Below, in pieces: positions 844-58,477 of a stretch of DNA of 64,000 nucleotides. Within the stretch, counting starts at the first letter, position 1. Every line of letters starts with the position of its first letter. The stretch is from Torpedo marmorata (lineage: Eukaryota), in assembly GCA_977017645.1 (NCBI GenBank), contig OZ360257.1:14694001-14758000 (forward strand). Reading direction: 5' to 3'. The notes below the pieces were generated by a model, which did not search any database, was not told the DNA's origin, and worked only from the letters and a program-made list of their open reading frames with translations. The position numbers and the translations under genes were made by a program.

Positions 844-1961
844 ATGTCTACCACAGTCTGGAGTCAAATTAGAGAATGTGCTAATATTCCCTGGTGGGAG
901 CTGAGAGATGTCTGGGAACAGTTGAGCGTTGCAGTCGATATATCTGTCGGAGGTACAAACCGAAAGCGATAGCTTTGAAAATGGTCGCTGCAACAGAATT
1001 GCGCTAAGCGCAATGTGAAGATGAAATGATTTCCCTTCTGCTCTCCTTGCACGAGTTTCGGAAATCACCTGCATAGAGATATGCAGTCAAACAAAGAAGT
1101 CAGCAGACGATGAGATTGTAGTGTAATACAGTACACAAAAGAGCAGGAGAAACTCATCTGGTCACGCAGCGTTACAGAGGAAGCAAAGATATAATACACT
1201 AAGACCACAAATGTTGATTTTAGATATCTCCTTCCAATGTACGCTGCGTGACCACCTAGGTATCTTCAGCATTTCATGTATGCAAATACATATGCATAGT
1301 TGACCTCATCCCTCTGAATATATTACAAACGAGCCTATAATTTTCGCAACTCAGAACGAGGAAATTTAAAAATGATGGTTGTTATGTCAGACGAATGCAA
1401 AATGTATTTACATAAATACTTTTATCTTTGATCGCTTCGTTATGATTTGTCACTCATCATTATGAACAATATATTCCAATGAAAAATTGCAACACGGGCA
1501 ATAGCATCGTTTGGTTATTATGCGTTTTGGAAAATATTCCAATCTTATTTGCATTGGAACACGTGAAAATAATTGGCAACTTAAAAAGGTTCTGCATCAC
1601 AAAATCATTTTTCTATATCTGACCAATTTCGGCTGCATTATTATGATTGAAAACCAAGTTAACCCCATTTCTACCATCTGTATTGATCCTGGTGTTCAAT
1701 GCCTTGACGATGTAACATATTTTGCTGGCTAACAGAATAAGAAACAAACTCCAAAGAATGAATAGTGAGGGAAGGCAGATGGATCAACAAATTGAAAAGC
1801 GAAGGAACTCAATTGTTTTACGGCTTATAATAGGTGGCAGTATCATTCTATTGTGGACGGTAAATTTAGCCACGTTAATCTCGGTACATTTTACCGAAAG
1901 TCAATTGAAAGCTGATACAGCAATGCATTCACCTTTGCGGAAGAAAGTTGCTTGCAGTTAA
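844..1961 (+). pseudogene. Divergent GPR139-like pseudogene (lineage A)
   Basis: FIFDRFVMIC at 1421-1450. LTPFLPSVLILVFNALTM*HILLANRIRNKL..MDQQIEKRRNSIVL..SIILLW at ~1660-1860 (TM5-ICL3-TM6), with stops and frameshifts. Tentative exon 1 relic MSTTVWSQIRE..IP|GT at 844-895. Confidence 0.8.
1090..1282. repeat. Palindromic interspersed repeat (Penelope-derived/MITE-like)
   Basis: Perfect 14-bp inverted repeat TGGTCACGCAGCGT (1159-1172) / ACGCTGCGTGACCA (1241-1254). Related elements at ~22100-22235, ~48370-48500 and ~61025-61155. Confidence 0.6.
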
Positions 1962-3001
1962 GGTTTCCGTACAGAACCATAGAAGACTACAGCTAAGGAT
2001 CAGGCCCTTCGGTCCATCTGGATTGTTCCGCAATATTATAGTCCCCGGTTCGATTGACCTGCACCCTGACCACAGCATTCCGTCCATACCCCTTCCATCC
2101 ATGTACAAATCTAATTTTTCTTAAATGTCAAACGTGAGCCTGCATTGACCATTTCAGTTGTAGAATCCTAGATCAAAACACCTTCATTTATACCGTTTCT
2201 CAAGTTCAGAGAAGAATTGAAGAACATGATTACACGCCCTCTTTTTCTCTTCTCCTGACCAGTATGAGCAAAATATCACGATTCTTCTGATTGGAAATGA
2301 AATATTTCAGAAAACATAATTGCATATTTTAACGGAATTGGTCTGAACTCCAGTTTTCTTTCGTTTCTCTCGTTGAAGGGATTATTCCATCAGTCCGCGC
2401 CGATGAACCTTGGGCGGTAGGAGAAAATCCTGTGTGTGCTCACAATTCATGCAACATCTGTGGAGAGAATAAAACAGAGATAGCATTTCATGTCAATGAA
2501 CTTTTATTTGAAATCAATTGTATTGACGATACAGGATTGAAAGCAATATTCGTAATGCGTTAAAAAGTCTTTAACAAAGTAGAAGGCATGGGAAGTGTGC
2601 TGCACAGTAATAGTTAGGATCAAATATGAAACGGTGAATTTTGAATAGGATATTTGGCTTGCAAATTAAGAAAAACGTTCGTTTATCATAAACGTCATGA
2701 AAGACATTCACGGGCTTTGTATTTCCAAGTTTCTTAATTGTTTGTAAATGAACATTGACCACCTGAGATTCTGTTATTTTACATTTTACCACCGTCAATC
2801 GCCAGTGCTCTTTCCAATTTCAGGTTTATTTTGAAATAATCACATTCAAACAAGACCCACTGTAAATTAAATGTAATACAGATAAAAGCCAGGCAAATAA
2901 TCATTTAGAGCGTTAATTCCAGAGGAGTATCTACAGTATTCGATAAATAGGTTATAAATACGCACCAACCTATCGCATCCTAAATTGTGTTTTATTTATT
3001 G

Positions 3002-4495: not shown

Positions 4496-4689
4496 TTTCT
4501 GTCAGAGCATCAACTCACTTCATTAATTTAGAATGAAGTGGTACTGTTTATTAAATCGAGTATGTGGAGATGTTATGTAATTTAAAGTCCCAGTGGAAAC
4601 GGCTGTCCTATAAATTAGGCTTCACAGTGAATCTCTTCGTTTTCTTTCCTGGACCTGTGCTGTACAGCAAACGCTCCTAACCTTAAAAG

Positions 4690-4749
4690 CTGCCGCGCCT
4701 GGACGCCACGGAGATCTTCTATCCCATCGTGCAATTGTCGACATTCCTG
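4690..4749 (+). pseudogene. Orphan dead copy of GPCR exon 1
   Basis: Paralog of 6671-6731 with both ATGs changed to CTG, a 1-nt deletion, and donor GTAAGT changed to CTAAGT. No exon 2 follows before the gene 1 upstream region. Confidence 0.88.
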
Positions 4750-4819
4750 CTAAGTGATTTTGCGGCAATCTCCACATACACACACACACACACGCACGCA
4801 CGCACGCACACACACACAG

Positions 4820-5430
4820 AAAGTTGTTCAGCCACCTTCGCCCTGCCAGGATTTAAAGAATCTTTTGACATGAAGTTGTTGAAGGTAGGCAATCTCCAGT
4901 TACTAGAAAATAAAACCGACGACCTCAGCGCAAAGCGGCTATATCAGAGACAGTTGAGGAAAATCTCAGTTGTTTATTGCTCCGAGTCCTGTCTAATAGA
5001 GAATACAAAGGACGCTGCGATCCGACCAGAGGTTCTAACCATTCACAGGCTGAACTGGGACCTGAATTCTGACAAAGTTATAGGGCACGATGTTTGTTTT
5101 CCAGTTAATATCGGTTGGTGCACGGTCGTTGGTGTTCTTTCAAACTCTTCCTCCGGTTTCGGAGAGCAAATATCGATCAAATGCAAACCCTTCAATGTAC
5201 CCCGAGGGTCCTCATCAGTAATTCTCACCCGGGTTTATCTCCTGCCCGACGCCAATTACAAACAGGCACGTGCGGAGCTGCATGACAATCACAGTCGTTG
5301 ACTTTAACCAGGCCTGTCTTAAGAAAACCCTGCGCAAATATCACCAGCAAGTAGCCTGCTGTACCAGAGGCACCAGAACATTTGATCATTGCGGCAACAA
5401 CATAAGGAATGCTTACGTTCTTTCATGATA
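4820..5430 (+). mobile_element. Rex1/Babar-type LINE endonuclease fragment (orphan intron copy)
   Basis: NLQLLENKTDDL..YQRQL..ESCL..IKCKPF; paralog of 6900-7530. Confidence 0.7.
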
Positions 5431-5924
5431 GAATATGTTGGTGTTTGCTGTCCACCCCATCTAAACTCATCCGACGAATGATGTCCAACCAACCATACGC
5501 CTTCCTGACCAGCGCGTCAAATCGCACAGCAACCTTGAGGGGTGTATTAACCTTGTCCCCAAGGTTTCTCTGCTCCTCCAATCTGTTATAGATCTGCCAT
5601 TAACACGCACTCCGCGTTCGATTTGACCTCCAAAGTGCACCAAACGTAACCGTATTGAACTCAATCTGCCACTTCTCTGCCCAACTCCGCATCCTGTCTA
5701 TATCCCGTTATAACCCACGACAGCCTTCTGCACTCCCGACAACACTGTGAACCGTTGTATCATTAGCAAATGCAAAGAAAATAGAGCACAGAAAGAAATT
5801 CTCTGATTGGACTTGATGCCTTCGAACCAACCCTCAGCGGTGATGCGTTACGCCAAATACCACAGGCGATCCAAACACTCCTCGGATCTGTGTGGCGTTT
5901 GCAACAAAAATTAAATCAGGATTT

Positions 5925-6552: not shown

Positions 6553-6595
6553 GTTACGTAATTTTTATGTCCCAGTAGAACGGCTGTCCTATAAA
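6553..6595 (+). promoter_or_regulatory. Core promoter of gene 1: GTTACGTAAT (D-box-like) and TATAAA
   Basis: TATAAA at 6590-6595, 81 nt upstream of the ATG; pyrimidine-rich TCA Inr-like site ~30-35 nt downstream. Confidence 0.6.
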
Positions 6596-6670
6596 TTAGG
6601 CTTCAGAGTGAAACTCTTCGTTTTCACATATTCACATGTGCTGTAGAGAAACCGCTCCTATCGTCAAAAG

Positions 6671-6731
6671 ATGCCACGAATGGACGCCACAGAGATCTTC
6701 TATCCCAGTCTTGCAATAGTCGGCATTCCTG
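6671..6731 (+). CDS. GPR139-like GPCR gene 1, coding exon 1 (MPRMDATEIFYPSLAIVGIP-G)
   Basis: ATG at 6671, 20 codons + G, then donor GTAAGT at 6732. The phase-1 junction rebuilds TM1 GIP-GN with exon 2. The same exon precedes all five genes. Confidence 0.9.
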
Positions 6732-8947: not shown

Positions 8948-9861
8948 GTAACCTGCTCTCGATTGTGGTCCTGTCCCGGGGAATGTGCGGCCTCTCCAAA
9001 GGAGTGATTCGTTACATGGTAACCATGGCAGTTGCAGATACAATGGTCTGTGTGTTCAACGTCACAGTGACAAACGTCTTCCGCCATCATTTTCAGGGTT
9101 CATTCCTTGCACACACCTCCACTTGTCGGCTTACAGCCTTCATACAGATATTTAGCGTGCAATTGTCCGTCTGGGCCACCGTATCGTTCACAGTGGACCG
9201 CTTCATTGCCATTTGTTGCCAGCAATTCAAAACAAAATATTGTACCGAAAGAAACGCCACGGTGGTTCTTACGACTGTGGGTCTGCTGAGCGTTTTGATG
9301 CACATTCCAGCTTATTTCCGGTATGAACCCCATTACATTGCGGTTGATGTCCAATGGGGCTGCCGTACTATAACACAATATATTTCTTCACAAGCATGGC
9401 AGATTTACAGATGGTTGACTAAACTTACGGTACCACTGGTGCCGCTGCCGCTGATGTTGCTGTTGAATTCTCTCACCGTCCGACACATTTTACTTGTCAG
9501 CAGAGCTCGGAAGGCTTTGAAGCGCCATGGGGACGGTGAGATGTGTGATCCCGAGATGACGAACCGGAGGACGTCCATTATTTTGCTCTTCGCCATTTCC
9601 GGTACCTTCATTGCGTTGTGGACACCTGTTACGATAATTGACCTATTTTTCCAACTAACCTCGACTTTTGCGATCGATGCCCCGAAGTCACTGGTTCTGG
9701 CAATTAGAATCGCGATTATGCTGATGTATTTGAGCTGCTCTACAAACACTTGTGTTTATGCATTGACACAGAGGAGATTCCGGGAGGAGGTGAAGAAGGT
9801 GGCAAAATATCCATTTATTGCGGTTGTACGGTTTTTAAAACCAATTACGCAGCCACAATGA
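8948..9861 (+). CDS. GPR139-like class A GPCR gene 1, exon 2 (spliced protein 324 aa)
   Basis: Polypyrimidine tract + TTACAG acceptor at 8947. Motifs: TM2 MAVAD, C3.25, TVDRFIAIC, ECL2 WGC, TM6 LWTP, TM7 NTCVY, helix 8 FREEV. SVWATVxFTVDRFIAIC and the non-proline NxxxY resemble GPR139/142. Confidence 0.93.
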
Positions 9862-16819: not shown

Positions 16820-16861
16820 GTTATGTAATTTAATGTCCCAGTGGAACGGCTGTCCTATAAA
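16820..16861 (+). promoter_or_regulatory. Core promoter of gene 2 (GTTATGTAAT, TATAAA)
   Basis: TATAAA at 16856-16861, 81 nt before the ATG. Confidence 0.6.
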
Positions 16862-16936
16862 TTAGGCTTCACAGTGAATCTCTTCGTTTTCGCATCTGCA
16901 CATGTGCTGCAGAGAAATCTCTCCTATCCTCAAAAG

Positions 16937-16997
16937 ATGCCACTAATGGACGTCACCGAGATCTTCTATCCTATTCTTGCAATTGTCGGCATTCCTG
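16937..16997 (+). CDS. GPR139-like gene 2, coding exon 1 (MPLMDVTEIFYPILAIVGIP-G)
   Basis: ATG at 16937, GTAAGT donor at 16998, paralogous to 6671-6731. Confidence 0.9.
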
Positions 16998-18739: not shown

Positions 18740-19629
18740 GTAACCTGCTCTCGATTGTGGTCCTGTCCCGGGGAATGTGCGGCCTCTCCAAAGGAGTGAT
18801 ACGTTACATGGTAACCATGGCAGTTGCAGACACAATGGTCTGTGTGTTTAACGTTACGGTGACAAACGTCTTCCGCCATCATTTTCCTCATTCATTCCTG
18901 GCACACACCTCCACTTGTCGTCTTACAATCTTCATACAGATATTTAGCGTGCAATTCTCTGTCTGGGCCACGGTATCGTTCACAGTGGACCGCTTTATTG
19001 CCATTTGTTGCCAGCAATTCAAAACAAAATATTGTACCGAAAGAAACGCCGCGGTGATTCTAACGACTGTGTGTGTGCTGAGCTTTTTGATGCACATTCC
19101 AGCCTATTTCCGGTATGAACCCATTTACATTGTGGGTGATGTCCAATGGGGCTGCCGTACTCTAACACAATATATTTATTCACCAGCATGGCAGACTTAC
19201 AGATGGTTGTCTAAACTTATGTTACCACTGGTGCCGCTCCCGCTGATGTTGCTGTTGAATTATCTCACCGTCCGACACATTTTACTTGTCAGCAGAGCTC
19301 GGAAGGCTTTGAAGCGCCGTGGGGACGGCGAGGTCTGTGATCCCGAGATGACGAACCGGAGGACGTCCATTATATTGCTCTTCGCCATTTCTGGTACTTT
19401 CATTGCGTTGTGGACACCAGTTACGATACTTGACCTATTTTTCCAACTAACCTCAACTTTTATGATCGACGCACCGAAGTCACTGTTTCTGTCAATTAGA
19501 ATCGCGATTCTGCTGATGTATTTGAGCTGCTCTACAAACACCTGTGTTTATGCATTGACACAGAGGAGATTCCGGGAGGAGGTGAAAAAGGTTGCAAAAT
19601 ATCCATTTATTGCCTTTGTATGGTTTTAA
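18740..19629 (+). CDS. GPR139-like gene 2, exon 2 (spliced protein 316 aa; C-tail 8 aa shorter)
   Basis: AG acceptor at 18738-18739 and full 7TM ORF. A 1-nt shorter T-run gives an early TAA after helix 8. Confidence 0.9.
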
Positions 19630-26294: not shown

Positions 26295-27672
26295 TAAATC
26301 TATAAAAAGGGTCATAGAGAGAATCCTGAGAATTAAAGACAGGTGAGGCTTACGTCAGTGGTGCGCAAACTATTGGAGAGGATCCTTAAGGACGGGAGTT
26401 ATGAGAATTAGGACAAAAGCATGGATTTGTGAGAGGATGATCGTGCCTCATGAGCCTCATTGCATTTTCTGATGAGATAATAAAATATATTGAGGAAAGT
26501 GTGAAGGTAGATCAGGTGTATATGGATTTCAGTGAGGCGTTTGACAAGGTTCCCCATGAAAGACTCGGTCAGAAAGACATCAGGCATTCTATCCACGGAA
26601 TCTTGGCTGTGTGGATAATAAAATTGGCTTGCCTGTAGAAAGCAGAGGACGGAACGGATCATATACTGTCTGAACGTCAGTGAGTAGTGGAGTTCCGCTG
26701 GGATATTTTCTTGAACCCCTGCTCTTTGTGATTTTCGTAAATGACCTTGATGAAGAGCGGAAGGGTGGGTCAGTAGGGTTGAAGATGATATAATGGTTGG
26801 AGGAGCTGCAGTTAGTGTTGAAGTGTGTCGTAGATTACAATGCAGAGATGGGCGCAAAAGTGGCAGATCGAGTTCAATCCGGATAAGTTTGTGAAGCATT
26901 TTGGAAGGTCAAACCTTGATGAATACAGCGTTAATGGTCGGATACTTAAGAGTGTGGAGGAACAGAGGGACCATGAAGTTCGAATCCATAGATCTCTCAG
27001 TGTTTCCACGCAGGTTGATAGGATAGTTAAGAAGGCCTATGGGATGCTGTGTTTCAATAATAGGGGGATTGAGTTCAATAGTATAGAGGTCATGTTGCAA
27101 ATCTACACACCTCTGGTGAGACCATACTTATAGTATTTTATTCTGTTCTGGCCACATCGTTATAGGAAGGATGTGGAAACTATGGAGAGGGTGCGGAGGA
27201 GATTTACCAGGGTATTGCCTGGATTGGAAAATGTCTTCTGAGGCACGGTTAGTAGAGCAAGTACTTTTCTGTTTGGAGCGAAGAAGGATGAGAGGTGACT
27301 TCATAAAAGTCTACAAGAATATATACAGTAGATAGGGTAGAGAGCAAGCGCCTTTTTCGCAGGGAGGGAATAGCAAACACCAGGGGACGTTTGCACAAAG
27401 TGAAGGGAGGAAGGTTGAGGGGAGATATCAGAGGTAAATTATTCACACAGAGATGGAGGAGCCGGCAATGCTTTGCCAGGTTGGTGGTGGGGGTTGAAAC
27501 ATTTTGGGTATTTAAGAGACTCGGAGACAGGCACATGGATGAACGAAAATTAGAGGATTAAGAGGTTGGAAGGTTTCAGTATTTTTTTTGGTAGGAATAT
27601 ACAGGTCGGCACAACATTGAAGGCCGAATAGCCTGTACTGTGCTCTCATGTTCCATCTTCTATGTTCTATGT
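26295..27672 (+). mobile_element. Decayed CR1 LINE (RT to tail)
   Basis: MDFSEAFDKVPH; (TTCTATG)n tail. Confidence 0.9.
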
Positions 27673-28160
27673 TTTGAAACTACTTTGATGCCAATCGTGA
27701 TTCTTTTCCATGTAATTTACGGCCTCTCAAAATGCATCACTCAGTGGTTGCTGGGAATGGCAGAAGCTGACTGAGTGGTTGTGAAACTTTATATGAATTG
27801 ATTTTATATGAGATTGACGATCGGTATTTTCCACATTCAGACTTCAATCAGACTTCTCTCTGTAGAGTTTTTCTGACCATGTTATTTATTTCCATTGACG
27901 GTTCAATGTGACTAACTGTGGCTTTCATGTTCGATCGATTTTTTGCAATTTGTCACCAAACGCTACAATCAAAATATTGCACAGAAAATAATTCATCTGT
28001 AGCGAAAGCGCGGTGGAATTTTCCTCAACATTTGGAGAAAACACCATTTCATTTACTAACCTCGAGACGTAATTGATATTGTTGAATAATCCTGCAGGTA
28101 ATATCATGCTTTTGCACCTTATGAATTTGAGCAGCTATTCTCTGGCAGGAAACAGTCTTT

Positions 28161-32647: not shown

Positions 32648-32689
32648 GTTATGCAAGTTAGTGTCCCAGGAGAACGGCTGTCCTATAAA
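32648..32689 (+). promoter_or_regulatory. Core promoter of gene 3 (GTTATGCAAG, TCCCAGGAG, TATAAA)
   Basis: TATAAA at 32684-32689, 81 nt before the ATG. Confidence 0.6.
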
Positions 32690-32764
32690 TTAGGCTTCAC
32701 AGTGAAACTCTTCGTTTTCACATATTCACATGTGCTGTGGAGAAACCGCTCTTATCCTCAAAAG

Positions 32765-32825
32765 ATGCCACGAATAGAAGCCACGGAGATCTTCTATCCC
32801 ATTCTTGCAATTGTCGGCATTCCTG
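32765..32825 (+). CDS. GPR139-like gene 3, coding exon 1 (MPRIEATEIFYPILAIVGIP-G)
   Basis: ATG at 32765, GTAAGT donor at 32826. Confidence 0.9.
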
Positions 32826-34012: not shown

Positions 34013-34926
34013 GTAACCTGCTCTCCATTGTGGTCCTGTCCCGGGGAATGTGCGGCCTCTCCAAAGGAGTGACTCGTTACATGGTAACCATGGCCGTTGC
34101 AGACACAATGGTCTGTGTGTTTAACGTTACAGTGACAATCGTCTTCCGCCATCATTTTCCTCATTCATTCCTGGCACATACCTCCACTTGTCGTCTTACA
34201 GACTTCATGCAGATATTTAGCGTGCAATTCTCTGTCTGGGCCACGGTACTGTTCACAGTAGACCGCTTCATTGCCATTTGTTGCCAGCAATTCAAAACAA
34301 AATATTGTACCGAAAGAAACGCCACGGTGATTCTGACAACTGTGGGTCTGCTGAGCTTTTCGATGCACATTCCAGCTTATTTCCGGTATGAACCCCATTA
34401 CATTGTGGGTGATGTCCAATGGGGCTGCCGTACAATAACACAATATATTTATTCACCAGCATGGCAGACTTACAGATGGTTGTCTAAACTTATGGTACCA
34501 CTGGTGCCGCTGCCGCTGATGTTGCTGTTGAATTCTCTCACCGTCCGACACATTCTACTTGTCAGCAGAGCTCGGAAGGCTTTGAAGCGCCGTGGGGACG
34601 GTGAGGTCTGTGATCCCGAGATGACGAACCGGAGAACGTCCATTATTTTGCTCTTCGCCATTTCCGGTACCTTCATAGCGTTGTGGACACCGGTTACGAT
34701 AATTGACCAATATTTCCATCTCACGTCAAGTTTTTCGATCGACGCCCCGAAGTCACTGCTTCTGGCAATTAGAATCGCGATTCTGCTGATGTATTTGAGC
34801 TGCTCTACAAACACTTGTGTTTATGCAATGACACAGAGGAGATTCCGGGAGGAGTTGAAGAAGGTGGTAAAATATCCATTTATTGCCCTTGTACGGTTTT
34901 TAAAACCAATGACGCAGCCACAATGA
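34013..34926 (+). CDS. GPR139-like gene 3, exon 2 (spliced protein 324 aa)
   Basis: AG acceptor at 34011-34012; intact 7TM ORF with DRF, LWTP and NTCVY. Confidence 0.93.
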
Positions 34927-37673: not shown

Positions 37674-39539
37674 CATTAAACTAAATGGCGCAACTGCATT
37701 TCATCTCTCCAATCATGGAGCGACCAGTAATTTTAGAGAACGAAAAAAATAACAATCCTATTCTTTGGTGTACATCGTAAGCCATGTAACATCTGCTAAA
37801 ACTTTTTTTCTTACTCGAATTTTCAAGTCAAGTATATTGTCATCTGATTGTACAAGTACAACCCGAAGAAACAGCGTTCTCTGGTCCTAGGTGCAAAACA
37901 TGCAGACCCACAACCAGACATAACACACATATAGACATATAATATTTATTTACATAATATATATAATACATTTTAATGCACAGCTTCTCCAACCGGCGCA
38001 ATGCTCTTGTCCATTGAATAAACGCGTTGCTTTTGCTGACGTAATTTCCCAAATTTATAGAAACAACTCCCAAGTGTTCGTGTTGCATTTCGATTTTTAA
38101 TATACTGCATCAAAATGTGGTGACATAAAGTTGAGGGAATTAATGGAAAATAGCTAATGGTTTAGATTTGCACGTGGCGAAATAACTTTCAATGGAAGTC
38201 AACCACTCAGAAAAGATCACCGCATGCCGATCCAATATAAGGAAGGTATGTGCGCTACATTGCTTTATTTGAAAGAGATTTTCCGCCGCTCACGTTAAAT
38301 TTAAGAAACAGTCTGGTGGCTTTTGTTTCCTCGAATTACCTCCAGCTAAAGGACTTGAGACAGCAGGATCAGAGCAGCCTGTGTGTTCCAAGTACAAACA
38401 GCAGCTACATGGAGCTTCCCGGTGCTCCAGGCAGTTGTAAATCTCGATCAAAAGCAGGCTGCAATACCATCCTAGGAACGAAAATTATCCATATTTATTT
38501 TGAGGAATTGGGCATGTTTCGTCGTCTGATTTGTAACATCCACCAAGTACAATATGCAGCAAGATCATGAAGAAAATACCTTAAATCAAAGACAACGACA
38601 GGAACAGCATTTGGAAAGGAAATTGAAAATAATTCCGAGGTCCAGGATGAATCCGCAGTTGGAGAGAAGGGGATTGATTAAGGGGGGTTAGCATAGCTTT
38701 TTTGTTGGTCGATTATATACAACTAATTTTGTGTTTGTTTCGAGGAACAGCTCAATGTATCGATGAGAGTACTGCAGTTGATGAAGTTGACACAATTTTC
38801 GTTACGACCCTGTCAGTTATCCAGATAATGGGCTTGCACGGTTAGCGTAGCGGTTAGTGCAACACATTTACAGGGCCAGTGTCCCGGGTTCGAACCCGGC
38901 CCTGTCTGTGAGGAGTTTGTCCGTTCTCCATATGTCTGCGTGGGTTTCCTCCGGGTGATCCTGTTTCCTCCCACCCTTTAAAACGTAGTTTATTGGGTTA
39001 TTTGAGCGGCACAGACCGAGGGCCAGAAAGGCCTGTTACGGTGCTGTATGTCGAAATAATGCACTGGTCCACAGATGAAGGGATCAAAGGCAATTTGGAA
39101 ATTTGGATTCAATGTTTGCCTCGTAACAGAAGGTAATAGTTCATGATGGATAATTGAATATAGAATATAGAAATCTTCAACGTGGTATAGGCCATTTGGG
39201 CCACAGTGTTATGCCAACCTGATAATCTCCGCTTCCAAGAATTCCGAGAATTGCCGTCCTGTATAACGCTCATTTTTATTCTGTTACATGTACCAATATA
39301 CTCGTCTCTTAAAATGTCCAAATGTACCTGCCTCTAAAACAGTTGCCAGCAGTGAATCCCATGCACCCACTACTCACTGTGTGAAGATCGTGCCTCTAAC
39401 CCTCCCCATGTACTTACTCCGAAGCACTTTTAAACGCCCCCCACCCCCGCCTGAATGGAGGTTTTCCTTTGCGTGTGGAAACCTTTCTTACACAGTGCCA
39501 AAACGTGAAACTATTGGGGGCACTCAGCGGATTGAACAG

Positions 39540-39944: not shown

Positions 39945-41336
39945 TCTCTAAAAAGGGTAATAGAGAGTGTCCTGAGAATTACAGACAGGTGAGGCTTACG
40001 TCAGTGGTGTGAAAACTATCGGAGAGGATTGTTAAGGACACGATTTATGAGCATTTGGAGAAGTACAGTCGTCTGAGAGACATAAGCATGGCTTTGTGAG
40101 GGGATGGTCGTGCCTCATGAGCCTCATTGCATTTGCTGAGGAGATAACAAAATATAATGAGGAAAGTGTGCCTTTAGACAAGGTACATATGGATTTCAGT
40201 GAGGCGTTTGACAAGGTTCCCCATGAAGGACTCGGTCAGAAAGACATCAGGCATTCTATCCACGGAATCTCAGCTGTGTGGATAAAAAATTGGCTTGCCT
40301 GTAGAAAGCAGAGGACGGCACAGAAAGTATTCTGTCTGGAAGTCAGTGACCAGTGGAGTTCCGCAAGGATTTTTTCTAGAACCCCTGCTCTTTGTGCATT
40401 TTATAAATGACCGAGATGAAGAGCGGAAGGGTGTGTCAGTAGGTTTGCAGATGATATAATGGTTGGAGGAGCTGCAGTTAGTGTTGAAGTTTGTCGTAGA
40501 TTACAATGCAGAGATGAGCGCAAAAGTGGCAGATCGACTTCAATCCGGATAAGTTTGTGAAGCATTTTGGAGGGTCAAACCTTGATGAATACAGCATTAA
40601 TGGTCGGATACTTAGGAGTGTGGAGGAACAGAGGTACCTTGAAGTTAAAATCCATAGATCTCTCAATGTTTCCGCGCAGGTTGATAGGATAGTTAAGAAG
40701 GCCTAGGGATGCTGGGTTTCAATAATAGGGAGATTGAGTTCAATAGTATAGATGTCATGTTGCAACTCTACACACCTCTGGTTAGACCATACTTATAGTA
40801 TTGTATTCAGTTATGGCCACATCGTTATAGGAAGGATGTGGAAACTGTGGAGAGGGTGCGGAGGAGATTTACCAGTGTATTGCCTGGATTGGAAAATGTC
40901 TTCCGAGGCAAGGTTAGTAGAGCAGGGACTTTTTTGTTTAGAGTGAAGAAGGATGAGAGGTGACTTAATCAAAGTCTACAAGAATATAGACAGTAGATAG
41001 GGAAGACAGCAAGCGCCTTTTCGCAGGGAGGGAATAGCAAACACCAGGGGACGTTTGCACAAAGTGAAGGGAGGAAGGTTGAGGGGAGATATCAGGGGTA
41101 AATTATTCACAAATAGATGGAGGTGCCGGCAATGCTTTGCCAGGTTGGTGGTGGGGGCTGAATCACTTTGGGTATTTAAGAGACTCGTAGACAGGCACGT
41201 GGATGAACGAAAATTAGAGGATTAAAAGTTTGGAAGGTTTCAGTATTTTCTTGGTAGGAATATACAGATCGGCACAACATTGAAGGCCGAATAGCCTGTA
41301 CTGTGCTGTCATGTTCCATGTTCTATGTTATATGTT
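39945..41336 (+). mobile_element. Segmental copy of CR1 26295-27672
   Basis: Same lesions and same flanks as 26295-27672. Confidence 0.9.
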
Positions 41337-41347
41337 TTGAAACTACT

Positions 41348-41908
41348 TTGCTGCCAAACGTCATTCTGTTCCATGTAATTTACGGCCTCTCAAAATGCAT
41401 CACTCAGTGGTTGCTGGGAATGGCAGAAGCTGACTGAGAAGTTGTGAAACTGTATATGAATTGATTTTATATGAGATTAACGATCGGTCTTTTCCACATT
41501 CACACTTCAATCAGACTTCTCTCTGTAGAGTTATTCTGACCATGTTATTTATTTCCATTGACGGTTCAATGTGACTAACTGTGGCTTTCATGTTCGATCG
41601 ATTTTTTGCTATTTGTCACCAAACGCTACAAGCAAAATATTGCACTGAAAATAATTCATCTGTAGCGAAAGCGCGGTGGAATTTTCCTCAACATTTGGGA
41701 AAAAACACCATTTTATTTATTAACCTCGGGAAGTAATTGATAACGTTGAATTATCCTGCAATGTAATATCATGTTTTTACACCTTATGAATTTGAGCAGT
41801 TATTCTCTGGCAGTAAAAAGTCTTTAACTCATTTGCTCTTTATGTCTTTATCTTGGCGCCACATTCCCTGACCATCAGCCGCATTATACTGGCTATCCGA
41901 GCGAGGAG
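41348..41908 (+). pseudogene. Lineage-B GPCR pseudogene copy, no L1 insertion, truncated after ICL3
   Basis: Collinear with 27685-28160 joined to 30194-30272; contains GLSKC and FDRFFAICHQ. Confidence 0.85.
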
Positions 41909-42975
41909 GCCAACCCACCATACACCCTCTTTACCAGCGCGTCAACTCGCGCAGCAACCTTGAGGGGTGTATTAACATGGACCCCAAGATCTCTCAGTTC
42001 CTCCAAACTGTAAGAAATACTGTCATTAACACGCACTCCGCCTTCGATTCGGCCTCCAAAGTGCACTACACTTTACCGTATTGAACTCAATTTGCCACTC
42101 CTCTGCCCAACTCCGCATCCTGTCTATATCCCGTTATAACCCACGACAGCCTTCTGCACTCCCGACAACACTGTGAACCGTTGTATCATTAGCAAATGCA
42201 AAGAAAATAGAGCACAGAAAGAAATTCTCTGATTGGACTTGATGCCTTCGAACCAACCCTCAGCGTTGATGCATTACCCCAAACACCACAGGCGATCCAA
42301 ACACTCCTCGGATCTGTGTGGCGTTTGCAACAAAAATTAAATCAGGATTTCAAGGGGGACGGTTCACGTCACAGTTCAGCGCAACACATTCACAGCGTCA
42401 GCGACGCGGGTTCAAATACAGCGCTGCCCTGGAAGGTGTTTTATTGCTTTCCCTCGTGAACTGCTCGGTTTCCCAGGGTACTCTGGTTTCTTCCCACTCA
42501 CGAAAAAAAGTATGGAATTGGCATGTTCATTGGATGTAATTTGGCAGCACGGGCGTCATGCGCTAAGTGTCTGTATATTTTAAATAAATCTTCAGTCAAG
42601 CTAGCATGGCAGTCGACGTGTGAAAACAAACCATCTGGTCAGACCGACTGATGAACTTTTGAAAACTCATTGGAATAAAGTTATTTTCAGGTGTATAATG
42701 ATAAAAAGGAAAATATGTGTGATAATCAGGATCATTGGGAACAAACAAAGGAGAGAATTGCGAACACGTACCCCAGGGACGAGGTTAAAGCGAAGCAAAT
42801 GGAGATAGATGAACGCGACACTCCAGTGTCACGGTTCCACGTCAGGTGATGCAGCGAGCTCGCACCTGAACCTTGTTTATTACAATAACTAGTGTTAGTT
42901 ACTCTGGGCGGAGTGATCTCAGGTCATTAAGTTAGAATGAACTGATAGTCTTTGTTAAACCGAGTATGTGGAGGT

Positions 42976-43017
42976 GTTATGCAAGTTAGTGTCCCAGGAG
43001 AACGGCTGTCCTATAAA
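42976..43017 (+). promoter_or_regulatory. Core promoter of gene 4
   Basis: TATAAA at 43012-43017, 80 nt before the ATG. Confidence 0.6.
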
Positions 43018-43091
43018 TTAGGCTTCACAGTGAAACTCTTCGTTTTCACATATTCACATGTGCTGTAGAGAAACCGCATTATCCTCAAACG

Positions 43092-43152
43092 ATGCCACGA
43101 ATGAAAGCCACGGATATCTTCTATCACATTATTGCAATTGTCGGCATTCCTG
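43092..43152 (+). CDS. GPR139-like gene 4, coding exon 1 (MPRMKATDIFYHIIAIVGIP-G)
   Basis: ATG at 43092, GTAAGT donor at 43153. Confidence 0.9.
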
Positions 43153-44905: not shown

Positions 44906-45819
44906 GTAACCTGCTCTCGATTGTGGTCCTGTCACGGGGAATGCGCGGCCTCTCCAAAGGAGTGACTCGTTACATGGTAACCATGGCAGTTGCAGACACA
45001 ATGGTCTGTGTGTTTAACGTTACAGTGATATTCGTCTTCGGCTATCATTTTCCTCATTCATTCCTGGCACATACCTCCACTTGTCGTCTTACAGACTTCA
45101 TACAGAAATCCAGCGTGCAATTTTCTGTCTGGGCCACGGTATCGTTCACAGTGGACCGCTTCATTGCCATTTGTTGCCAGCAATTCAAAACAAAATATTG
45201 TACCGAAATAAACGCCACGGTAGTTCTTACGACTGTGTGTGTGCTGAGCTTTTTGATGCACATTCCAGCTTATTTCCGGTATCAACCCCATTACATTGCG
45301 GGTGATGTCCAATGGGGCTGCCGTACTATAACACGATATATTTCTTCACCAGCATGGCAGACTTACAGATGGTTGTCTAAACTTATGGTACCACTGGTGC
45401 CGCTGCTGCTGATGTTGCTGTTGAATTCTCTCACCGTCCGACACATTTTACTTGTCAGCAGAGCTCGGAAGGCTTTGAAGAGCCGTGGGGACGGTCAGGT
45501 ATTTGATCACGAGATGACGAAACGGAGAACGTCCATTATATTGCTCTTCGCCATTTCTGGTACCTTCATAGCGTTGTGGACACCGGTTACGATAATTGAC
45601 CAATACTTCCATCTCACCTCAAGTTTTTCGATCGACGCCCCGAAGTCACTGCTTCTGGCAATTAGAATCGCGATTCTGCTGATGTATTTGAGCTGCTGTA
45701 CAAACACTTGTGTTTATGCAATGACACAGAGGAGATTCCGGGAGGAGGTGAAGAAGGTGGCAAAACATCCATTTATTGCCCTTGTACGGTTTTTAAAACC
45801 AATGACGCAGCCACAATGA
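44906..45819 (+). CDS. GPR139-like gene 4, exon 2 (spliced protein 324 aa)
   Basis: AG acceptor at 44904-44905; intact 7TM ORF. Confidence 0.93.
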
Positions 45820-52235: not shown

Positions 52236-52274
<39 letters not shown>

Positions 52275-52584: not shown

Positions 52585-53977
52585 AATCTCTAAAAAGGGT
52601 AATAGAGAGTATCCTGAGAATAACCGACAGGTGAGGCTTACGTCACTGGTGTGAAAACTATCGGAGAGGATTCTTTAGGACACGATTTATGAGCATTTGG
52701 AGAAGTACAGTCGTCTGAGAGACATAAGCATGGCTTTGTGAGGGGATGGTCGTGCTTCATGAGCCTCGTTGCATTTTCTGAGGAGATAACAAAATATATT
52801 GAGAAAAATGTGCTTTAGACAAGGTACATATGGATTTCAGTAAGGCGTTTGACAAGGTTCCCCATGAAAGACTCGGTCAGAAAGACATCAGGCATTCTAT
52901 CCACGGAATCTCAGCTGTGTGGATAAAAAATTGGCTTGCCTGTAGAAAGCAGAGGACGGCACAGAAAGTATTCTGTCTGGAAGTCAGTGACCAGTGGAGT
53001 TCCGCAAGGATTTTTTCTAGAACCCCTGCTCTTTGTGCATTTTATTAATGACCGAGATGAAGAGCGGAAGGGTGTGTCAGTAGGTTTGCAGATGATATAA
53101 TGGTTGGAGGAGCTGCAGTTAGTGTTGAAGTTTGTCGTAGATTACAATGCAGAGATGAGCGCAAAAGTGGCAGATCGACTTCAATCCGGATAAGTTTGTG
53201 AAGCATTTTGGAAGGTCAAACCTTGATGAATACAGCATTAATGGTCGGATACTTAGGAGTGTGGAGGAACAGAGGTACCTTGAAGTTAAAATCCATAGAT
53301 CTCTCAATGTTTCCGCGCAGGTTGATAGGATAGTTAAGAAGGCCTAGGGATGCTGGGTTTCAATAATAGGGAGATTGAGTTCAATAGTATAGATGTCATG
53401 TTGCAACTCTACACACCTCTGGTTAGACCATACTTATAGTATTGTATTCAGTTATGGCCACATCGTTATAGGAAGGATGTGGAAACTGTGGAGAGGGTGC
53501 GGAGGAGATTTACCAGTGTATTGCCTGGATTGGAAAATGTCTTCCGAGGCAAGGTTAGTAGAGCAGGGACTTTTTTGTTTAGAGTGAAGAAGGATGAGAG
53601 GTGACTTAATCAAAGTCTACAAGAATATAGACAGTAGATAGGGAAGACAGCAAGCGCCTTTTCGCAGGGAGGGAATAGCAAACACCAGGGGACGTTTGCA
53701 CAAAGTGAAGGGAGGAAGGTTGAGGGGAGATATCAGAGGTAAATTATTCACACAGAGATGGAGGAGCCGGCAATGCTTTGCCAAGTTGGTGGTGGGGGCT
53801 GAATCACTTTGGGTATTTAAGAGACTCGTAGACAGGCACGTGGATGAACGAAAATTAGAGGATTAAAAGTTTGGAAGGTTTCAGTATTTTCTTGGTAGGA
53901 ATATACAGATCGGCACAACATTGAAGGCCGAATAGCCTGTACTGTGCTGTCATGTTCCATGTTCTATGTTATATGTT
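52585..53977 (+). mobile_element. Segmental copy of CR1 26295-27672
   Basis: Same lesions and same flanks as 26295-27672. Confidence 0.9.
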
Positions 53978-53988
53978 TTGAAACTACT

Positions 53989-54549
53989 TTGCTGCCAAAC
54001 GTCATTCTGTTCCATGTAATTTACGGCCTCTCAAAATGGATCACTCAGTGGTTGCTGGGAATGGCAGAAGCTGACTGAGAAGTTGTGAAACTGTATATGA
54101 ATTGATTTTATATGAGATTAACGATCGGTATTTTCCACATTCACACTTCAATCAGACTTCTCTCTGTAGAGTTATTCTGACCATGTTATTTATTTCCATT
54201 GACGGTTCAATGTGACTAACTGTGGCTTTCATGTTCGATCGATTTTTTGCTATTTGTCACCAAACGCTACAAGCAAAATATTGCACTGAAAATAATTCAT
54301 CTGTAGCGAAAGCGCGGTGGAATTTTCCTCAACATTTGGGAAAAAACACCATTTTATTTATTAACCTCGGGAAGTAATTGATAACGTTGAATTATCCTGC
54401 AATGTAATATCATGCTTTTACACCTTATGAATTTGAGCAGTTATTCTCTGGCAGTAAAAAGTCTTTAACTCATTTGCTCTTTATGTCTTTATCTTGGCGC
54501 CACATTCCCTGACCATCAGCCGCATTATACTGGCTATCCGAGCGAGGAG
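53989..54549 (+). pseudogene. Lineage-B GPCR pseudogene copy
   Basis: Near-identical to 41348-41908. Confidence 0.85.
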
Positions 54550-55615
54550 GCCAACCCACCATACACCCTCTTTACCAGCGCGTCAACTCGCGCAGCAACC
54601 TTGAGGGGTGTATTAACATGGACCCCAAGATCTCTCAGTTCCTCCAAACTGTAAGAAATACTGTCATTAACACGCACTCCGCCTTCGATTCGGCCTCCAA
54701 AGTGCACTACACTTTACCGTATTGAACTCAATTTGCCACTCCTCTGCCCAACTCCGCATCCTGTCTATATCCCGTTATAACCCACGACAGCCTTCTGCAC
54801 TCCCGACAACACTGTGAACCGTTGTATCATTAGCAAATGCAAAGAAAATAGAGCACAGAAAGAAATTCTCTGATTGGACTTGATGCCTTCGAACCAACCC
54901 TCAGCGTTGATGCATTACCCCAAACACCACAGGCGATCCAAACACTCCTAGGATCTGTGTGGCGTTTGCAACAAAAATTAAATCAGGATTTCAAGGGGGA
55001 CGGTTCACGTCACAGTTCAGCGCAACACATTCACAGCGTCAGCGACGCGGGTTCAAATACAGCGCTGCCCTGGAAGGAGTTTTATTGCTTTCCCTCGTGA
55101 ACTGCTCGGTTTCCCAGGGTACTCTGGTTTCTTCCCACTCACGAAAAAAAGTATGGAATTGGCATGTTCATTGGATGTAATTTGGCAGCACGGGCGTCAT
55201 GCGCTAAGTGTCTGTATATTTTAAATAAATCTTCAGTCAAGCTAGCATGGCAGTCGACGTGTGAAAACAAACCATCTGGTCAGACCGACTGATGAACTTT
55301 TGAAAACTCATTGGAATAAAGTTATTTTCAGGTGTATAATGATAAAAAGGAAATATGTGTGATAATCAGGATCATTGGGAACAAACAAAGGAGAGAATTG
55401 CGAACACGTACCCCAGGGACGAGGTTAAAGCGAAGCAAATGGAGATAGATGAACGCGACACTCCAGTGTCACGGTTCCACGTCAGGTGATGCAGCGAGCT
55501 CGCACCTGAACCTTGTTTATTACAATAACTAGTGTTAGTTACTCTGGGCGGAGTGATCTCAGGTCATTAAGTTAGAATGAACTGATAGTCTTTGTTAAAT
55601 CGAGTATGTGGAGGT

Positions 55616-55657
55616 GTTATGCAAGTTAGTGTCCCAGGAGAACGGCTGTCCTATAAA
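55616..55657 (+). promoter_or_regulatory. Core promoter of gene 5
   Basis: TATAAA at 55652-55657, 80 nt before the ATG. Confidence 0.6.
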
Positions 55658-55731
55658 TTAGGCTTCACAGTGAAACTCTTCGTTTTCACATATTCACATG
55701 TGCTGTAGAGAAACCGCATTATCCTCAAACG

Positions 55732-55792
55732 ATGCCACGAATGAAAGCCACGGATATCTTCTATCACATTATTGCAATTGTCGGCATTCCTG
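55732..55792 (+). CDS. GPR139-like gene 5, coding exon 1 (same peptide as gene 4)
   Basis: ATG at 55732, GTAAGT donor at 55793. Confidence 0.9.
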
Positions 55793-55891: not shown

Positions 55892-55970
<79 letters not shown>

Positions 55971-57563
55971 ACACATACACTCACAGAAAGTTGTTCAGCC
56001 GTCGTCGCTCTGCCAGTATTTAAAGAATCTTTTGACCTGAGGTTGTTGAAGTTAGACAATGTCCAGTCACTAAAAAATAAAACCGAAGACCTCTGGGCAA
56101 TGCTGCTATATCAGAGACAGTTGAGACAAATCTCAGTTGTTTGCTGCTGCGAATCCTGGCTAACAGAAAACACAAATAACGCTGTGATCCGACCAGAGGA
56201 TTTAACCATTCACAGGCTGGACTGGGACATGGATTCTGGCAAAGTGACAGGGCACAGTGTTTGCTTTCCTGTTAATATCGGATGGTGCACGGACGTTGGT
56301 GTTCTATCGAAATCTTCCTCCAGTGGCGGAGAGCAGATATCGATCAAATGAAAACTCTTCAATGTTCCCCGAGGTTTCTCATCAGTTATTCTCACCCGAG
56401 TTTATCTCCTTCCCGACACCAATTACAAACAGGCACTTGCGGAGCTGCATGACCTGGTCAGTAAACAGGCCCACCCCGAGACACTTCCAGTCACAGTCGT
56501 TGACTTTCATCAGGCCTGTCTTAAGAAAGCCCTGCGCAAATATCACCAGCACGTAACCTGCTGTACCAGAGACACCAGCTCATTTGAACTTTGCGACAAC
56601 AACATAAGGAATGCCTACGTTCCTTCATGATACATCATGTTGTTGTTTGCTGTTCACCCCATCTAAACCCCTCATGATGTTGTCTACCCCCAATAATTCA
56701 CCTCTTCCCCTTCATCGCTGCAGAGAAAAGCCCTAGCTCTGTCGACCTTCCTTCATATGATAGGTTCTGCAATCCAGGCAACACCTTTGCACACTCTCCA
56801 GAGCATCCATATATTTCCTATAAGGAGGCAACCATAACTGAACGCATAGATTTGAACTGTTTATCGTCACGTATCCGGGGAAAAGTGAAAAGGCGTTATT
56901 TTGCCTGCTATCCAGGCAAATCAAGCCATATAAAATACAGCAGGCAGCGCAAGGATAGAAATAGTACAGATGATAGTGTTACAATAAAGTACAACATGAC
57001 GTGCTAAAGACAGGAGTGCTGTTAAGCTATGCAAGTCATTACCTTTTACTCATGAGAGGTCTATTCAACAGCCTGCCAGCAGGAATGCATGTGCCCTTGA
57101 ATCTGGTTGGGTGCTATTCTTCATAACTCGTGCTTCTTCTGCCCGGCGGCAGGGATTATTTATCCGGGAGACGGCGGGAGATATGGACGAAGTCGATGGA
57201 CGGGGGATTGGATTATTGATAACACTGAATTGCGTTCATTACTCTCCGTGGTTTCTTGAGACTCCGAGCTCAGCAGTTTCCACTCCAATCTGTGATGCAC
57301 CCGTACCGGACACTTTCTATTGTTCATCTGCACACAACGGACAGGGTCAACGGGGGCATGCCGAAATTCCTCAGCTTCTGAGGTAGTGAAAGCGTTGTTG
57401 CTCTTTCCATTCCGTAGTGCCAATGTAATGTTGGCAACTGCATAATTTACAGGAACAGACAAATGTTTCGATTAGGTTATTCCCAAAGATTCCATTGTAA
57501 AAATCACGTTAAAGATGTTGACTTGTTTTTCTGGTAATTTCCTGGTTTTCCATCTTGTTACAG

Positions 57564-58477
57564 GTAACCTGCTCTCGATTGTGGTCCTGTCACGGGGAAT
57601 GCGCGGCCTCTCCAAAGGAGTGACTCGTTACATGGTAACCATGGCAGTTGCAGACACAATGGTCTGTGTGTTTAACGTTACAGTGATATTCGTCTTCGGC
57701 TATCATTTTCCTCATTCATTCCTGGCACATACCTCCACTTGTCGTCTTACAGACTTCATACAGAAATCCAGCGTGCAATTTTCTGTCTGGGCCACGGTAT
57801 CGTTCACAGTGGACCGCTTCATTGCCATTTGTTGCCAGCAATTCAAAACAAAATATAGTACCGAAATAAACGCCACGGTAGTTCTTACGACTGTGTGTGT
57901 GCTGAGCTTTTTGATGCACATTCCAGCTTATTTCCGGTATCAACCCCATTACATTGCGGGTGATGTCCAATGGGGCTGCCGTACTATAACACGATATATT
58001 TCTTCACCAGCATGGCAGACTTACAGATGGTTGTCTAAACTTATGGTACCACTGGTGCCGCTGCTGCTGATGTTGCTGTTGAATTCTCTCACCGTCCGAC
58101 ACATTTTACTTGTCAGCAGAGCTCGGAAGGCTTTGAAGAGCCGTGGGGACGGTCAGGTATTTGATCACGAGATGACGAAACGGAGAACGTCCATTATATT
58201 GCTCTTCGCCATTTCTGGTACCTTCATAGCGTTGTGGACACCGGTTACGATAATTGACCAATACTTCCATCTCACCTCAAGTTTTTCGATCGACGCCCCG
58301 AAGTCACTGCTTCTGGCAATTAGAATCGCGATTCTGCTGATGTATTTGAGCTGCTGTACAAACACTTGTGTTTATGCAATGACACAGAGGAGATTCCGGG
58401 AGGAGGTGAAGAAGGTGGCAAAACATCCATTTATTGCCCTTGTACGGTTTTTAAAACCAATGACGCAGCCACAATGA
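57564..58477 (+). CDS. GPR139-like gene 5, exon 2 (324 aa; differs from gene 4 by KYC>KYS in ICL2)
   Basis: AG acceptor at 57562-57563; intact 7TM ORF. Confidence 0.92.

What the first reader, a model, noticed from the sequence alone, without database searches (positions are those of the whole stretch)
844..58477. Tandem birth-and-death array of GPR139-like orphan GPCRs: a candidate unrecognised chemoreceptor family
Seen: five intact co-oriented two-exon 7TM genes, one dead exon-1 copy, and several pseudogenes of at least two more divergent lineages within 64 kb. Known: mammalian GPR139 and GPR142 are single-copy sensors of L-Trp/L-Phe; cartilaginous fishes have very small OR repertoires; clustered, compact, pseudogene-rich GPCR families typically are OR, TAAR, V1R, T2R, FPR or MRGPR. 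Inference: this is a lineage-specific expanded sensory (smell, taste, solitary chemosensory or immune) receptor repertoire built from the GPR139 scaffold. Pipelines may already label such genes GPR139-like, so the novelty would be in function, not existence.
Basis: partly seen in the sequence, partly recalled or inferred. Interest (0 to 1): 0.85.

Follow-up and report, generated by a model that had tools for sequence, protein, structure and literature searches.

The report
Large overlooked shark-ray receptor family
This stretch of ray-like DNA holds a tandem row of cell-surface receptor genes from a large, fast-changing family of sharks and rays that databases mislabel as GPR139 and that looks like an unrecognised set of chemical sensors, though where it is expressed is still unknown.

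Summary
The array is real. It has five intact, co-oriented, two-exon class A GPCR genes (four distinct; g4 and g5 differ by 1 nt), a dead exon-1 copy, and two old pseudogenes, one copied several times.

The genes are not GPR139 paralogues. Human GPR139 scores no better than distant unnamed outgroups (85 bits against 73-126). Only 1 of its 5 Trp/Phe-site residues is kept, and the TM3 and ECL2 cysteines that GPR139 lacks are present.

The family is elasmobranch-wide: 119 of 120 listed relatives are from 21 shark and ray species, with at least 16-21 clusters on 10 scaffolds in single genomes. Its sisters are two conserved, apparently single-copy vertebrate orphans, one in amphibians and sturgeon and one probably beside TMEM183A.

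The family's pocket is hypervariable (identity 0.32 against 0.55 for other TM positions), whereas the single-copy relatives conserve it (0.95 against 0.78; 0.75 against 0.63). This pattern suggests many ligands and one transducer.

No expression or ligand data were available, and positive selection is not shown. Ten literature searches found no description. Best reading: an unrecognised chemoreceptor repertoire; an immune or MRGPR-like role is the main rival.

The parts
1412..1955 (+). psiA: decayed exon-2 pseudogene (TM3-TM6) of another subfamily; a possible C-terminal scrap at 2202-2243
   Evidence: (profile E 7e-33)
4514..5466 (+). Dead partial copy: promoter, broken exon 1 and start of intron, no exon 2
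6590..6731 (+). g1 TATA box (6590) and exon 1 (6671-6731): 7-residue N-terminus and most of TM1
8948..9861 (+). g1 exon 2 (end of TM1 to C-terminus); protein 324 aa
10097..10543 (+). 3' remnant of psiB
16856..16997 (+). g2 TATA box and exon 1 (16937-16997)
18740..19629 (+). g2 exon 2; protein 316 aa
24052..24106 (+). Probable decayed exon 1 of psiB copy 1 (weak profile score, followed by a donor site)
27652..30857 (+). psiB copy 1 exon 2, split by an insertion of about 2 kb (about 28.2-30.1 kb)
32684..32825 (+). g3 TATA box and exon 1 (32765-32825)
34013..34926 (+). g3 exon 2; protein 324 aa
36865..64000 (.). Young tandem repeat, unit about 12.6 kb (psiB copy plus intact gene); 36865-51343 is 97.2% identical to 49457-64000
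37722..37776 (+). Probable decayed exon 1 of psiB copy 2 (bounds taken by offset from copy 1)
41315..41912 (+). psiB copy 2 exon 2, 3' truncated
43012..43152 (+). g4 TATA box and exon 1 (43092-43152)
44906..45819 (+). g4 exon 2; protein 324 aa
50321..50375 (+). Probable decayed exon 1 of psiB copy 3
53956..54553 (+). psiB copy 3 exon 2, 99.6% identical to copy 2
55652..55792 (+). g5 TATA box and exon 1 (55732-55792)
57564..58477 (+). g5 exon 2; one base from g4, changing Cys119 (invariant in 58 of 58 aligned members) to Ser
62978..63032 (+). Probable decayed exon 1 of a fourth psiB copy; the array probably continues past the window

Best explanation
The genes belong to a large elasmobranch multigene family of class A GPCRs that grew from one branch of vertebrate orphans in the GPR139/GPR142/MIP-receptor/FMRFamide-receptor superclade. 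They most likely form an environment-facing chemoreceptor repertoire (nose, taste buds, solitary chemosensory cells or skin nerve endings). Each receptor has almost no N-terminus, so the ligand would bind in the outer half of the helix bundle under a disulfide-tied ECL2. That half differs between paralogues, giving different specificities for water-soluble cues, probably small peptides, amino-acid derivatives or amines. The inner half is conserved and feeds one shared G protein, probably Gq or Gi/o to PLC. Copies arise by tandem duplication of 10-16 kb units and die as pseudogenes. Shown: gene anatomy, tandem duplication, family breadth, sister genes, outer-variable and inner-conserved pattern. 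Inferred: expression site, ligand class, G protein, duplication by unequal crossing-over.
For: Breadth: 302 of 1,746 candidates pass E 1e-5; 119 of the 120 listed are named shark or ray proteins from 21 species, with 21 clusters on 10 scaffolds in Heptranchias and 16 on 10 in Heterodontus (lower bounds); 89 clusters at 50% identity score E<=1e-30, fragments included. Monophyly 95/92, sister to the amphibian and sturgeon gene 99/94. Pocket identity 0.32 against 0.55 other TM and 0.67 inner half in 109 members; 0.95 against 0.78 and 0.75 against 0.63 in the two single-copy families. The pattern holds within one genome (Heterodontus 0.37/0.58, 19 rows; Heptranchias 0.35/0.61, 14 rows) and in 54 cluster representatives (0.34/0.50). 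Among g1-g4, nonsynonymous:synonymous changes are 44:19 on the outer side and 28:28 elsewhere, Fisher p=0.038. Overall dN/dS 0.37-0.70 in 9 of 9 measurable pairs indicates functional genes. Precedent: nematode srw, a birth-and-death putative chemoreceptor family related to myosuppressin and FMRFamide receptors (PMC2576165 passages). Need: cartilaginous fishes average only 43.8 known olfactory receptor genes despite many sensory neurons (PMC10869828 passages).
Against: No expression or ligand evidence was found. Outer non-pocket positions are nearly as variable as pocket positions (0.36-0.45 against 0.32-0.37 in the four broad sets), which relaxed constraint could also give. Among g1-g4 pocket identity is not lower than other TM (0.88 against 0.90, P=0.33); the 9:1 pocket count is small. 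No pair has dN/dS above 1, and no site model was run. The 50 most abundant and specific genes of a catshark brain-plus-olfactory library included no GPCR (PMC11979771 passage; uninformative for sparse receptors). Catshark olfactory neurons are described as V2R-dominated (PMC10116579 passages). An olfactory-type promoter motif (recalled consensus) is at chance level in the window: 86 matches against 98 expected.
Confidence: 0.5

Rival explanations
1. An immune or barrier sensor family: an elasmobranch analogue of MRGPRs or formyl-peptide receptors, expressed on granulocytes, mast-like cells, gut or skin, detecting microbial, parasite or damage peptides.
For: The same signature is expected: tandem turnover, short N-terminus, variable outer half. 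Cartilaginous fishes lack MAS1 and its relatives (PMC8455134 passage), leaving that niche open (inference).
Against: No sequence kinship to FPR or MRGPR: neither is among the 27 PDB matches of the family profile. No expression evidence; the one held supplement of a nurse-shark spleen paper (4,750 characters) had no hit and is too small to count.
Confidence: 0.25
2. Receptors for a diversified set of endogenous or conspecific signals (neuropeptides, reproductive peptides, pheromones), continuing the peptide-receptor role of the superclade.
For: GPR139/142 cluster with MIP, proctolin, FMRFamide and myosuppressin receptors (PMC8514136 and PMC12208981 passages). The TM3 and ECL2 cysteines and an ECL2 hairpin typical of peptide receptors are present.
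Against: Endogenous-ligand receptors usually keep copy number and pocket stable, as the two single-copy relatives do and as nematode FMRFamide-receptor-related genes do.
Confidence: 0.15
3. Largely neutral copy-number drift in repeat-rich DNA, with relaxed constraint on the ligand side of redundant copies.
For: Retroelement remnants lie between the units, dead psiB was copied along passively, g5 carries a change at an invariant Cys, and dN/dS reaches 0.70.
Against: Several subfamilies are shared by sharks and rays, the inner half is conserved (0.61-0.72), and 5 of 5 complete copies of the young subfamily keep frame, splice sites and TATA box.
Confidence: 0.07
4. True GPR139 paralogues that sense L-Trp and L-Phe.
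For: GPR139 is the best PDB match by sequence, profile and fold; both have two exons (PMC7318219 passage); 106 of 119 named relatives carry that automatic name.
Against: Identity is 22-23% in the structural match, against 70% between human and zebrafish GPR139. Profile score is 85 bits, against 167-234 for the two orphan families and 73-126 for distant outgroups. 4 of 5 site residues are changed.
Confidence: 0.03

Closest known systems
GPR139 / GPR142 (aromatic amino-acid receptors)
   Same: Nearest characterised receptor: best PDB hit by phmmer (E 1.8e-12), profile (5e-23) and Foldseek; two exons; W6.48 and P6.50; no proline in the TM7 motif.
   Different: About 22-23% identity; F3.33, H5.42(5x43), R6.51 and N7.39(7x38) replaced; TM3 and ECL2 cysteines present, absent in GPR139; many copies instead of one; variable pocket.
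Unnamed single-copy orphan of amphibians and sturgeon (P0214 family, auto-named GPR139)
   Same: Sister group of the expansion (99/94); short N-terminus, C3.25; profile score 171-234 bits.
   Different: About one cluster per species (20 amphibian and 1 sturgeon among 25 hits); pocket almost invariant (0.95) and GPR139-like at F3.33, K6.51, N7.39.
Unnamed orphan probably beside TMEM183A (P0229 family; sharks, coelacanth, ray-finned fishes, amphibians, turtles, squamates)
   Same: Next sister (vertebrate clade 100/100); profile-profile E 1.7e-52; same TM1/ICL1 pattern; gene models break at the same place before N1.50, suggesting the same intron.
   Different: Mostly one cluster per species, also present as such in sharks; pocket conserved (R6.51 and D7.36 100%); no mammal or bird among the named hits of the 120 of 145 listed.
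Nematode srw and related invertebrate FMRFamide-receptor-like putative chemoreceptor expansions
   Same: Same broad receptor neighbourhood and birth-and-death behaviour; weak Pfam Srx and Srw matches in 17 and 2 of 58 members.
   Different: Independent expansion from a vertebrate orphan branch; not orthologous at family level; srw ligands are themselves only speculated.
Vertebrate OR, TAAR, V1R, T2R, FPR, MRGPR families
   Same: Works like them in genome behaviour: compact genes, tandem clusters, pseudogenes, short N-terminus, variable outer half.
   Different: No OR, V1R or T2R Pfam match in 58 of 58 members; Gln rather than the aminergic Asp at 3.32; not among the six families surveyed in PMC10869828.

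Membership tests
Class A (rhodopsin-like) GPCR | 7tm_1 match, seven helices, N1.50, D2.50, D-R3.50, P5.50, P6.50 | tested here: met
   (58 of 58)
GPR139 orthologue or paralogue | High identity to mammalian GPR139 (70% human to zebrafish) | tested here: not met
   22-23%; 50.7 bits
GPR139 orthologue or paralogue | Trp/Phe site F3x33, H5x43, W6x48, R6x51, N7x38 (PMC5430874) | tested here: not met
   Only W6.48 kept in g1-g5; others I/K, T/S, V, I
GPR139 orthologue or paralogue | No TM3-ECL2 disulfide cysteines | tested here: not met
   Cys80 and Cys159 in 5 of 5 genes; C3.25 in 94% of 109
GPR139 orthologue or paralogue | Groups with GPR139 to the exclusion of other receptors | tested here: inconclusive
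   No true GPR139/142 sequence could be put in a tree; by profile score it ranks with distant outgroups, below two other orphan families
GPR139 orthologue or paralogue | Two coding exons | tested here: met
   the position of the human intron was not checked
GPR139/142-MIPR-FMRFaR superclade | Nearest named receptors are GPR139, FMRFamide-receptor-like and Srw-domain proteins | tested here: met
   by similarity only, not by a tree with named members
OR / V1R / T2R | Family-specific Pfam match | tested here: not met
   0 of 58 at E<=0.01
TAAR | Asp at 3.32 and aminergic kinship (recalled) | tested here: not met
   Gln in g1-g5; Asp not among the four commonest residues in 109 members
FPR / MRGPR | Closest similarity to those receptors | tested here: not met
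   Absent from the 27 profile matches in PDB
Chemoreceptor multigene family (functional kind) | Tandem clusters, birth and death, lineage-specific expansions | tested here: met
Chemoreceptor multigene family (functional kind) | Variable ligand side, conserved transducer side | tested here: met
   (family-wide; weaker within the window)
Chemoreceptor multigene family (functional kind) | Positive selection at pocket codons | tested here: inconclusive
   9 nonsynonymous to 1 synonymous in 34 codons of 4 genes; overall dN/dS below 1
Chemoreceptor multigene family (functional kind) | Sparse expression in sensory cells | not testable with these tools
   Catshark atlas supplement unreadable
Chemoreceptor multigene family (functional kind) | Activation by external chemicals | not testable with these tools
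   needs an assay

The most novel reading that the evidence does not exclude
This is a further vertebrate chemoreceptor family beyond the six usually surveyed. It is expressed one or a few receptors per cell in the shark and ray nose or taste organs, is comparable to or larger than their whole known olfactory repertoire, and evolved independently from the same peptide-receptor neighbourhood that gave nematodes their srw receptors. It would help explain how elasmobranchs smell well with so few ORs.
Probability: 0.35. Interest if true: 0.92.

Novelty: new variant of a known kind. Interest (0 to 1): 0.72.

Why it matters
Cartilaginous fishes are reported to have the smallest olfactory receptor repertoire of the vertebrate groups surveyed (mean 43.8 genes) and a general paucity of GPCRs. 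Surveys search only the known families, so a multi-locus family hidden under the automatic name 'probable GPR139' would be missed. It gives a concrete gene list that existing tissue RNA-seq can test at once. Even if the role is immune rather than sensory, it is a large receptor radiation with two conserved vertebrate orphan relatives that serve as built-in controls and deorphanisation targets.

Tried and rejected
1. Expression data. The catshark 31-tissue atlas supplement could not be read; its main text has no GPR139 mention. Supplement searches found no family entry in PMC10115646 (3 files searched, 1 not readable), PMC11589584 (5 listed, 1 not readable), PMC10529500 (1 small file) or PMC8455134 (24 files, one cut when stored; a single GPR142 orthogroup label). 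Unseen supplements, bioRxiv ones included, may hold the decisive data.

2. Placing true GPR139/GPR142 in a tree. No stored protein had their TM3 pattern, so placement rests on profile scores.

3. Names of the 17 distant outgroup proteins were not obtained; they are presumed invertebrate from their look and the Atlas neighbours.

4. Olfactory-type promoter motif: chance level; rejected. Promoters are only slightly more alike than introns (0.91 against 0.88); uninformative.

5. An exon at position 844: no profile support.

6. Gene conversion scan along the CDS: one nearly shared g3/g4 block (2 differences in 120 nt); not pursued.

7. Holocephalans, lampreys and lungfish: none among the listed named hits, but 182 of 302 hits were not shown; unchecked. 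No eukaryotic genome scan was available, so per-genome counts and synteny are unchecked.
Full report
OBSERVATION. A six-frame scan found five long receptor ORFs on the + strand. Each is exon 2 of a two-exon gene. Exon 1 is 61 nt, followed by a phase-1 GT-AG intron of 1.2-2.2 kb in the codon before N1.50, with a TATA box 80-81 nt before the ATG. The proteins are 316-324 aa with about seven residues before TM1. All 5 match Pfam 7tm_1, and a model of g3 exon 2 built on a 58-row alignment has the 7TM fold (pLDDT 89.4). Start codons are 10.3, 15.8, 10.3 and 12.6 kb apart, and self-BLAST shows a tandem array. g1-g4 are 85-91% identical in protein, with dN/dS 0.37-0.70. g4 and g5 differ by one base and sit in a repeat about 99.5% identical over 40.3-47.7 kb, with 3-6% blocks on either side. 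A very young duplication and a second haplotype cannot be told apart here.

PSEUDOGENES. A broken promoter and exon-1 copy lies at 4.5-5.5 kb. psiA lies at 1412-1955. psiB is one dead gene copied with the tandem unit: exon-2 pieces at 10.1, 27.6+30.1, 41.3 and 54.0 kb, and probable exon-1 remnants at 24.1, 37.7, 50.3 and 63.0 kb. psiA and psiB both group with one Heterodontus protein (SH-aLRT 94, quick tree of 57 rows). That protein lies on the same scaffold as a Heterodontus member of the intact genes' subfamily, suggesting an old mixed cluster. Some of the remaining ORFs are retroelement remnants (2 of 5 tested gave RT or endonuclease matches above the Pfam cut-off).

THE FAMILY. A homologue search passed 302 of 1,746 candidates. 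Of the 120 listed, 119 are named shark or ray proteins from 21 species: 106 are auto-named GPR139 and 13 carry assorted other names. The nearest are from the electric ray Narcine bancroftii (83%), so the window is probably from an electric ray (inference). Single genomes give at least 21 clusters on 10 scaffolds (Heptranchias) and 16 on 10 (Heterodontus). The window's own subfamily has separate arrays in Narcine (6 clusters on one scaffold), Mustelus (6), Hemiscyllium (8) and Heptranchias (8). In the 50%-identity library, 89 representatives score E<=1e-30, fragments included. Median pairwise identity among 105 named members is 46%. True per-genome counts are unknown and may be much higher.

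ORIGIN. Human GPR139 is the nearest solved receptor by sequence, profile and fold, which explains the label, but it is remote. With one family profile, selected family members score 315-521 bits, an amphibian and sturgeon orphan family 171-234, a second orphan family 167-214, 17 unnamed distant receptors 73-126, and human GPR139 84.7. The first orphan has 20 amphibian and 1 sturgeon clusters among 25 hits. The second occurs in sharks, coelacanth, ray-finned fishes, amphibians, turtles and squamates, with no mammal or bird among the named hits of the 120 of 145 listed; two fused gene models suggest it lies beside TMEM183A. A careful tree (39 selected rows, LG+C20) gives the expansion as a clade (95/92), sister to the amphibian and sturgeon gene (99/94), then the second orphan (100/100 against 8 unnamed outgroups). 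A 106-row FastTree agrees. True GPR139/142 could not be included, so their position rests on scores.

GPR139 FEATURES. GPR139 lacks the TM3 and ECL2 cysteines, and its Trp/Phe site is F3x33, H5x43, W6x48, R6x51 and N7x38 (PMC5430874 passages). The window genes have both cysteines and keep only W6.48. The single-copy orphans keep a more GPR139-like site, with an aromatic residue at 3.33 and a basic one at 6.51.

SIGNATURE OF FUNCTION. I assigned 34 pocket-facing positions by generic class A numbering (a recalled convention, not computed from the model). Mean pairwise identity there is 0.32 in 109 family members (105 named hits of 290 aa or more plus g1-g4; 14 short hits and 1 unnamed dropped). 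This compares with 0.55 at other TM positions and 0.67 in the inner half (0 of 10,000 random column sets as low). The controls go the other way: 0.95 against 0.78 in 21 amphibian and sturgeon orthologues, and 0.75 against 0.63 in 31 named members chosen from the 120 listed for the second orphan. The pattern holds in 54 cluster representatives, in 19 Heterodontus and 14 Heptranchias paralogues, and weakly in the window's subfamily (0.55 against 0.65, P=0.018). Among g1-g4, amino-acid changes are enriched on the outer side (44:19 against 28:28, p=0.038). Against this reading: outer non-pocket positions are almost as variable as the pocket, pocket identity among g1-g4 alone is not reduced (P=0.33), columns are not independent, paralogues are being compared with orthologues, and positive selection is not shown.

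MECHANISM. The anatomy fits a repertoire with many ligands and one transducer: ligand bound in the outer bundle under ECL2, and a conserved inner face with intact D-R3.50, W6.48 and P6.50. GPR139 is described as Gq-coupled (PMC6367278, abstract in the listing) and was solved with Gi. Catshark olfactory neurons are Go- and TRPC2-positive (PMC10116579 passages). Coupling to PLC is therefore plausible but inferred. I put an environment-facing sensory role at 0.5, an immune or barrier role at 0.25 (sharks lack MAS1 and relatives, PMC8455134 passage), endogenous or conspecific peptides at 0.15, drift at 0.07 and GPR139-like Trp/Phe sensing at 0.03. Nematode srw is a precedent for a birth-and-death family arising beside myosuppressin and FMRFamide receptors (PMC2576165 passages), and GPR139/142 cluster with that group (PMC8514136, PMC12208981 passages).

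NOVELTY. The genes exist in databases as automatic 'probable GPR139' models. Ten searches of the held library showed no paper describing the expansion or the two orphans. Only 4 papers hold both 'GPR139' and 'shark'; I read passages of one and saw the other three as listings only, and none has sharks as its subject. 'GPR139' is absent from the main text of PMC11979771, PMC10116579, PMC8455134 and PMC10869828. All papers were seen as listings or search passages, none whole; PMC7318219, PMC12844162 and PMC11682238 likewise as passages, and PMC10115646, PMC11589584 and PMC10529500 only through supplement searches. Subscription papers are not covered, so prior description cannot be excluded.

VERDICT. 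This is an elasmobranch-wide, apparently undescribed receptor radiation with a chemoreceptor-like signature, wrongly tied to GPR139, and its function is directly testable with existing tissue data. Interest 0.72.

Noticed in passing
P0229 family: A conserved, mostly single-copy orphan GPCR, probably beside TMEM183A, in sharks, coelacanth, fishes, amphibians and reptiles but not seen in mammals or birds; auto-named GPR139/142 but distinct, with an invariant polar pocket suggesting one endogenous ligand.
   Followed up: partly
P0214 family: A second orphan, found in 20 amphibian clusters and one sturgeon, with a 95% conserved pocket; it is the bony-vertebrate sister of the shark expansion.
   Followed up: partly
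window 57564-58477: g5 differs from g4 only at Cys119, a residue invariant in 58 aligned members: a nascent pseudogene, an allele or a sequence error.
   Followed up: partly
window 36865-64000: The young repeat is a mosaic of about 6%, 0.4% and 3% divergence blocks; all four N gaps (175-199 nt) lie before 35.6 kb, where sister units carry microsatellites. A haplotype duplicate cannot be excluded.
   Followed up: partly
window 8394-8532, 18186-18372, 33464-33564: Intron sequence matches the N-terminus of Narcine model P0002, so that database model has a false first exon taken from the intron; many models of the family miss the 61-nt exon 1.
   Followed up: partly
window 4.8-5.5, 6.9-7.6, 17.1-17.8, 43.3-44.0, 55.9-56.7 kb: A shared intronic segment with retroelement-like open frames next to a CA microsatellite follows exon 1 in most units; no Pfam match for the one ORF tested.
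   Followed up: no
window 28.2-30.1 kb: An insertion of about 2 kb with a minus-strand ORF splits psiB copy 1; it is 66% identical to 11.9-12.8 kb. I read it as a LINE remnant from recall; Pfam did not confirm.
   Followed up: no
g1-g5 proteins: No N-glycosylation sequon on the outer face (sequons only at residues 58 and 123), so surface expression in cell lines may need a tag or chaperone.
   Followed up: no
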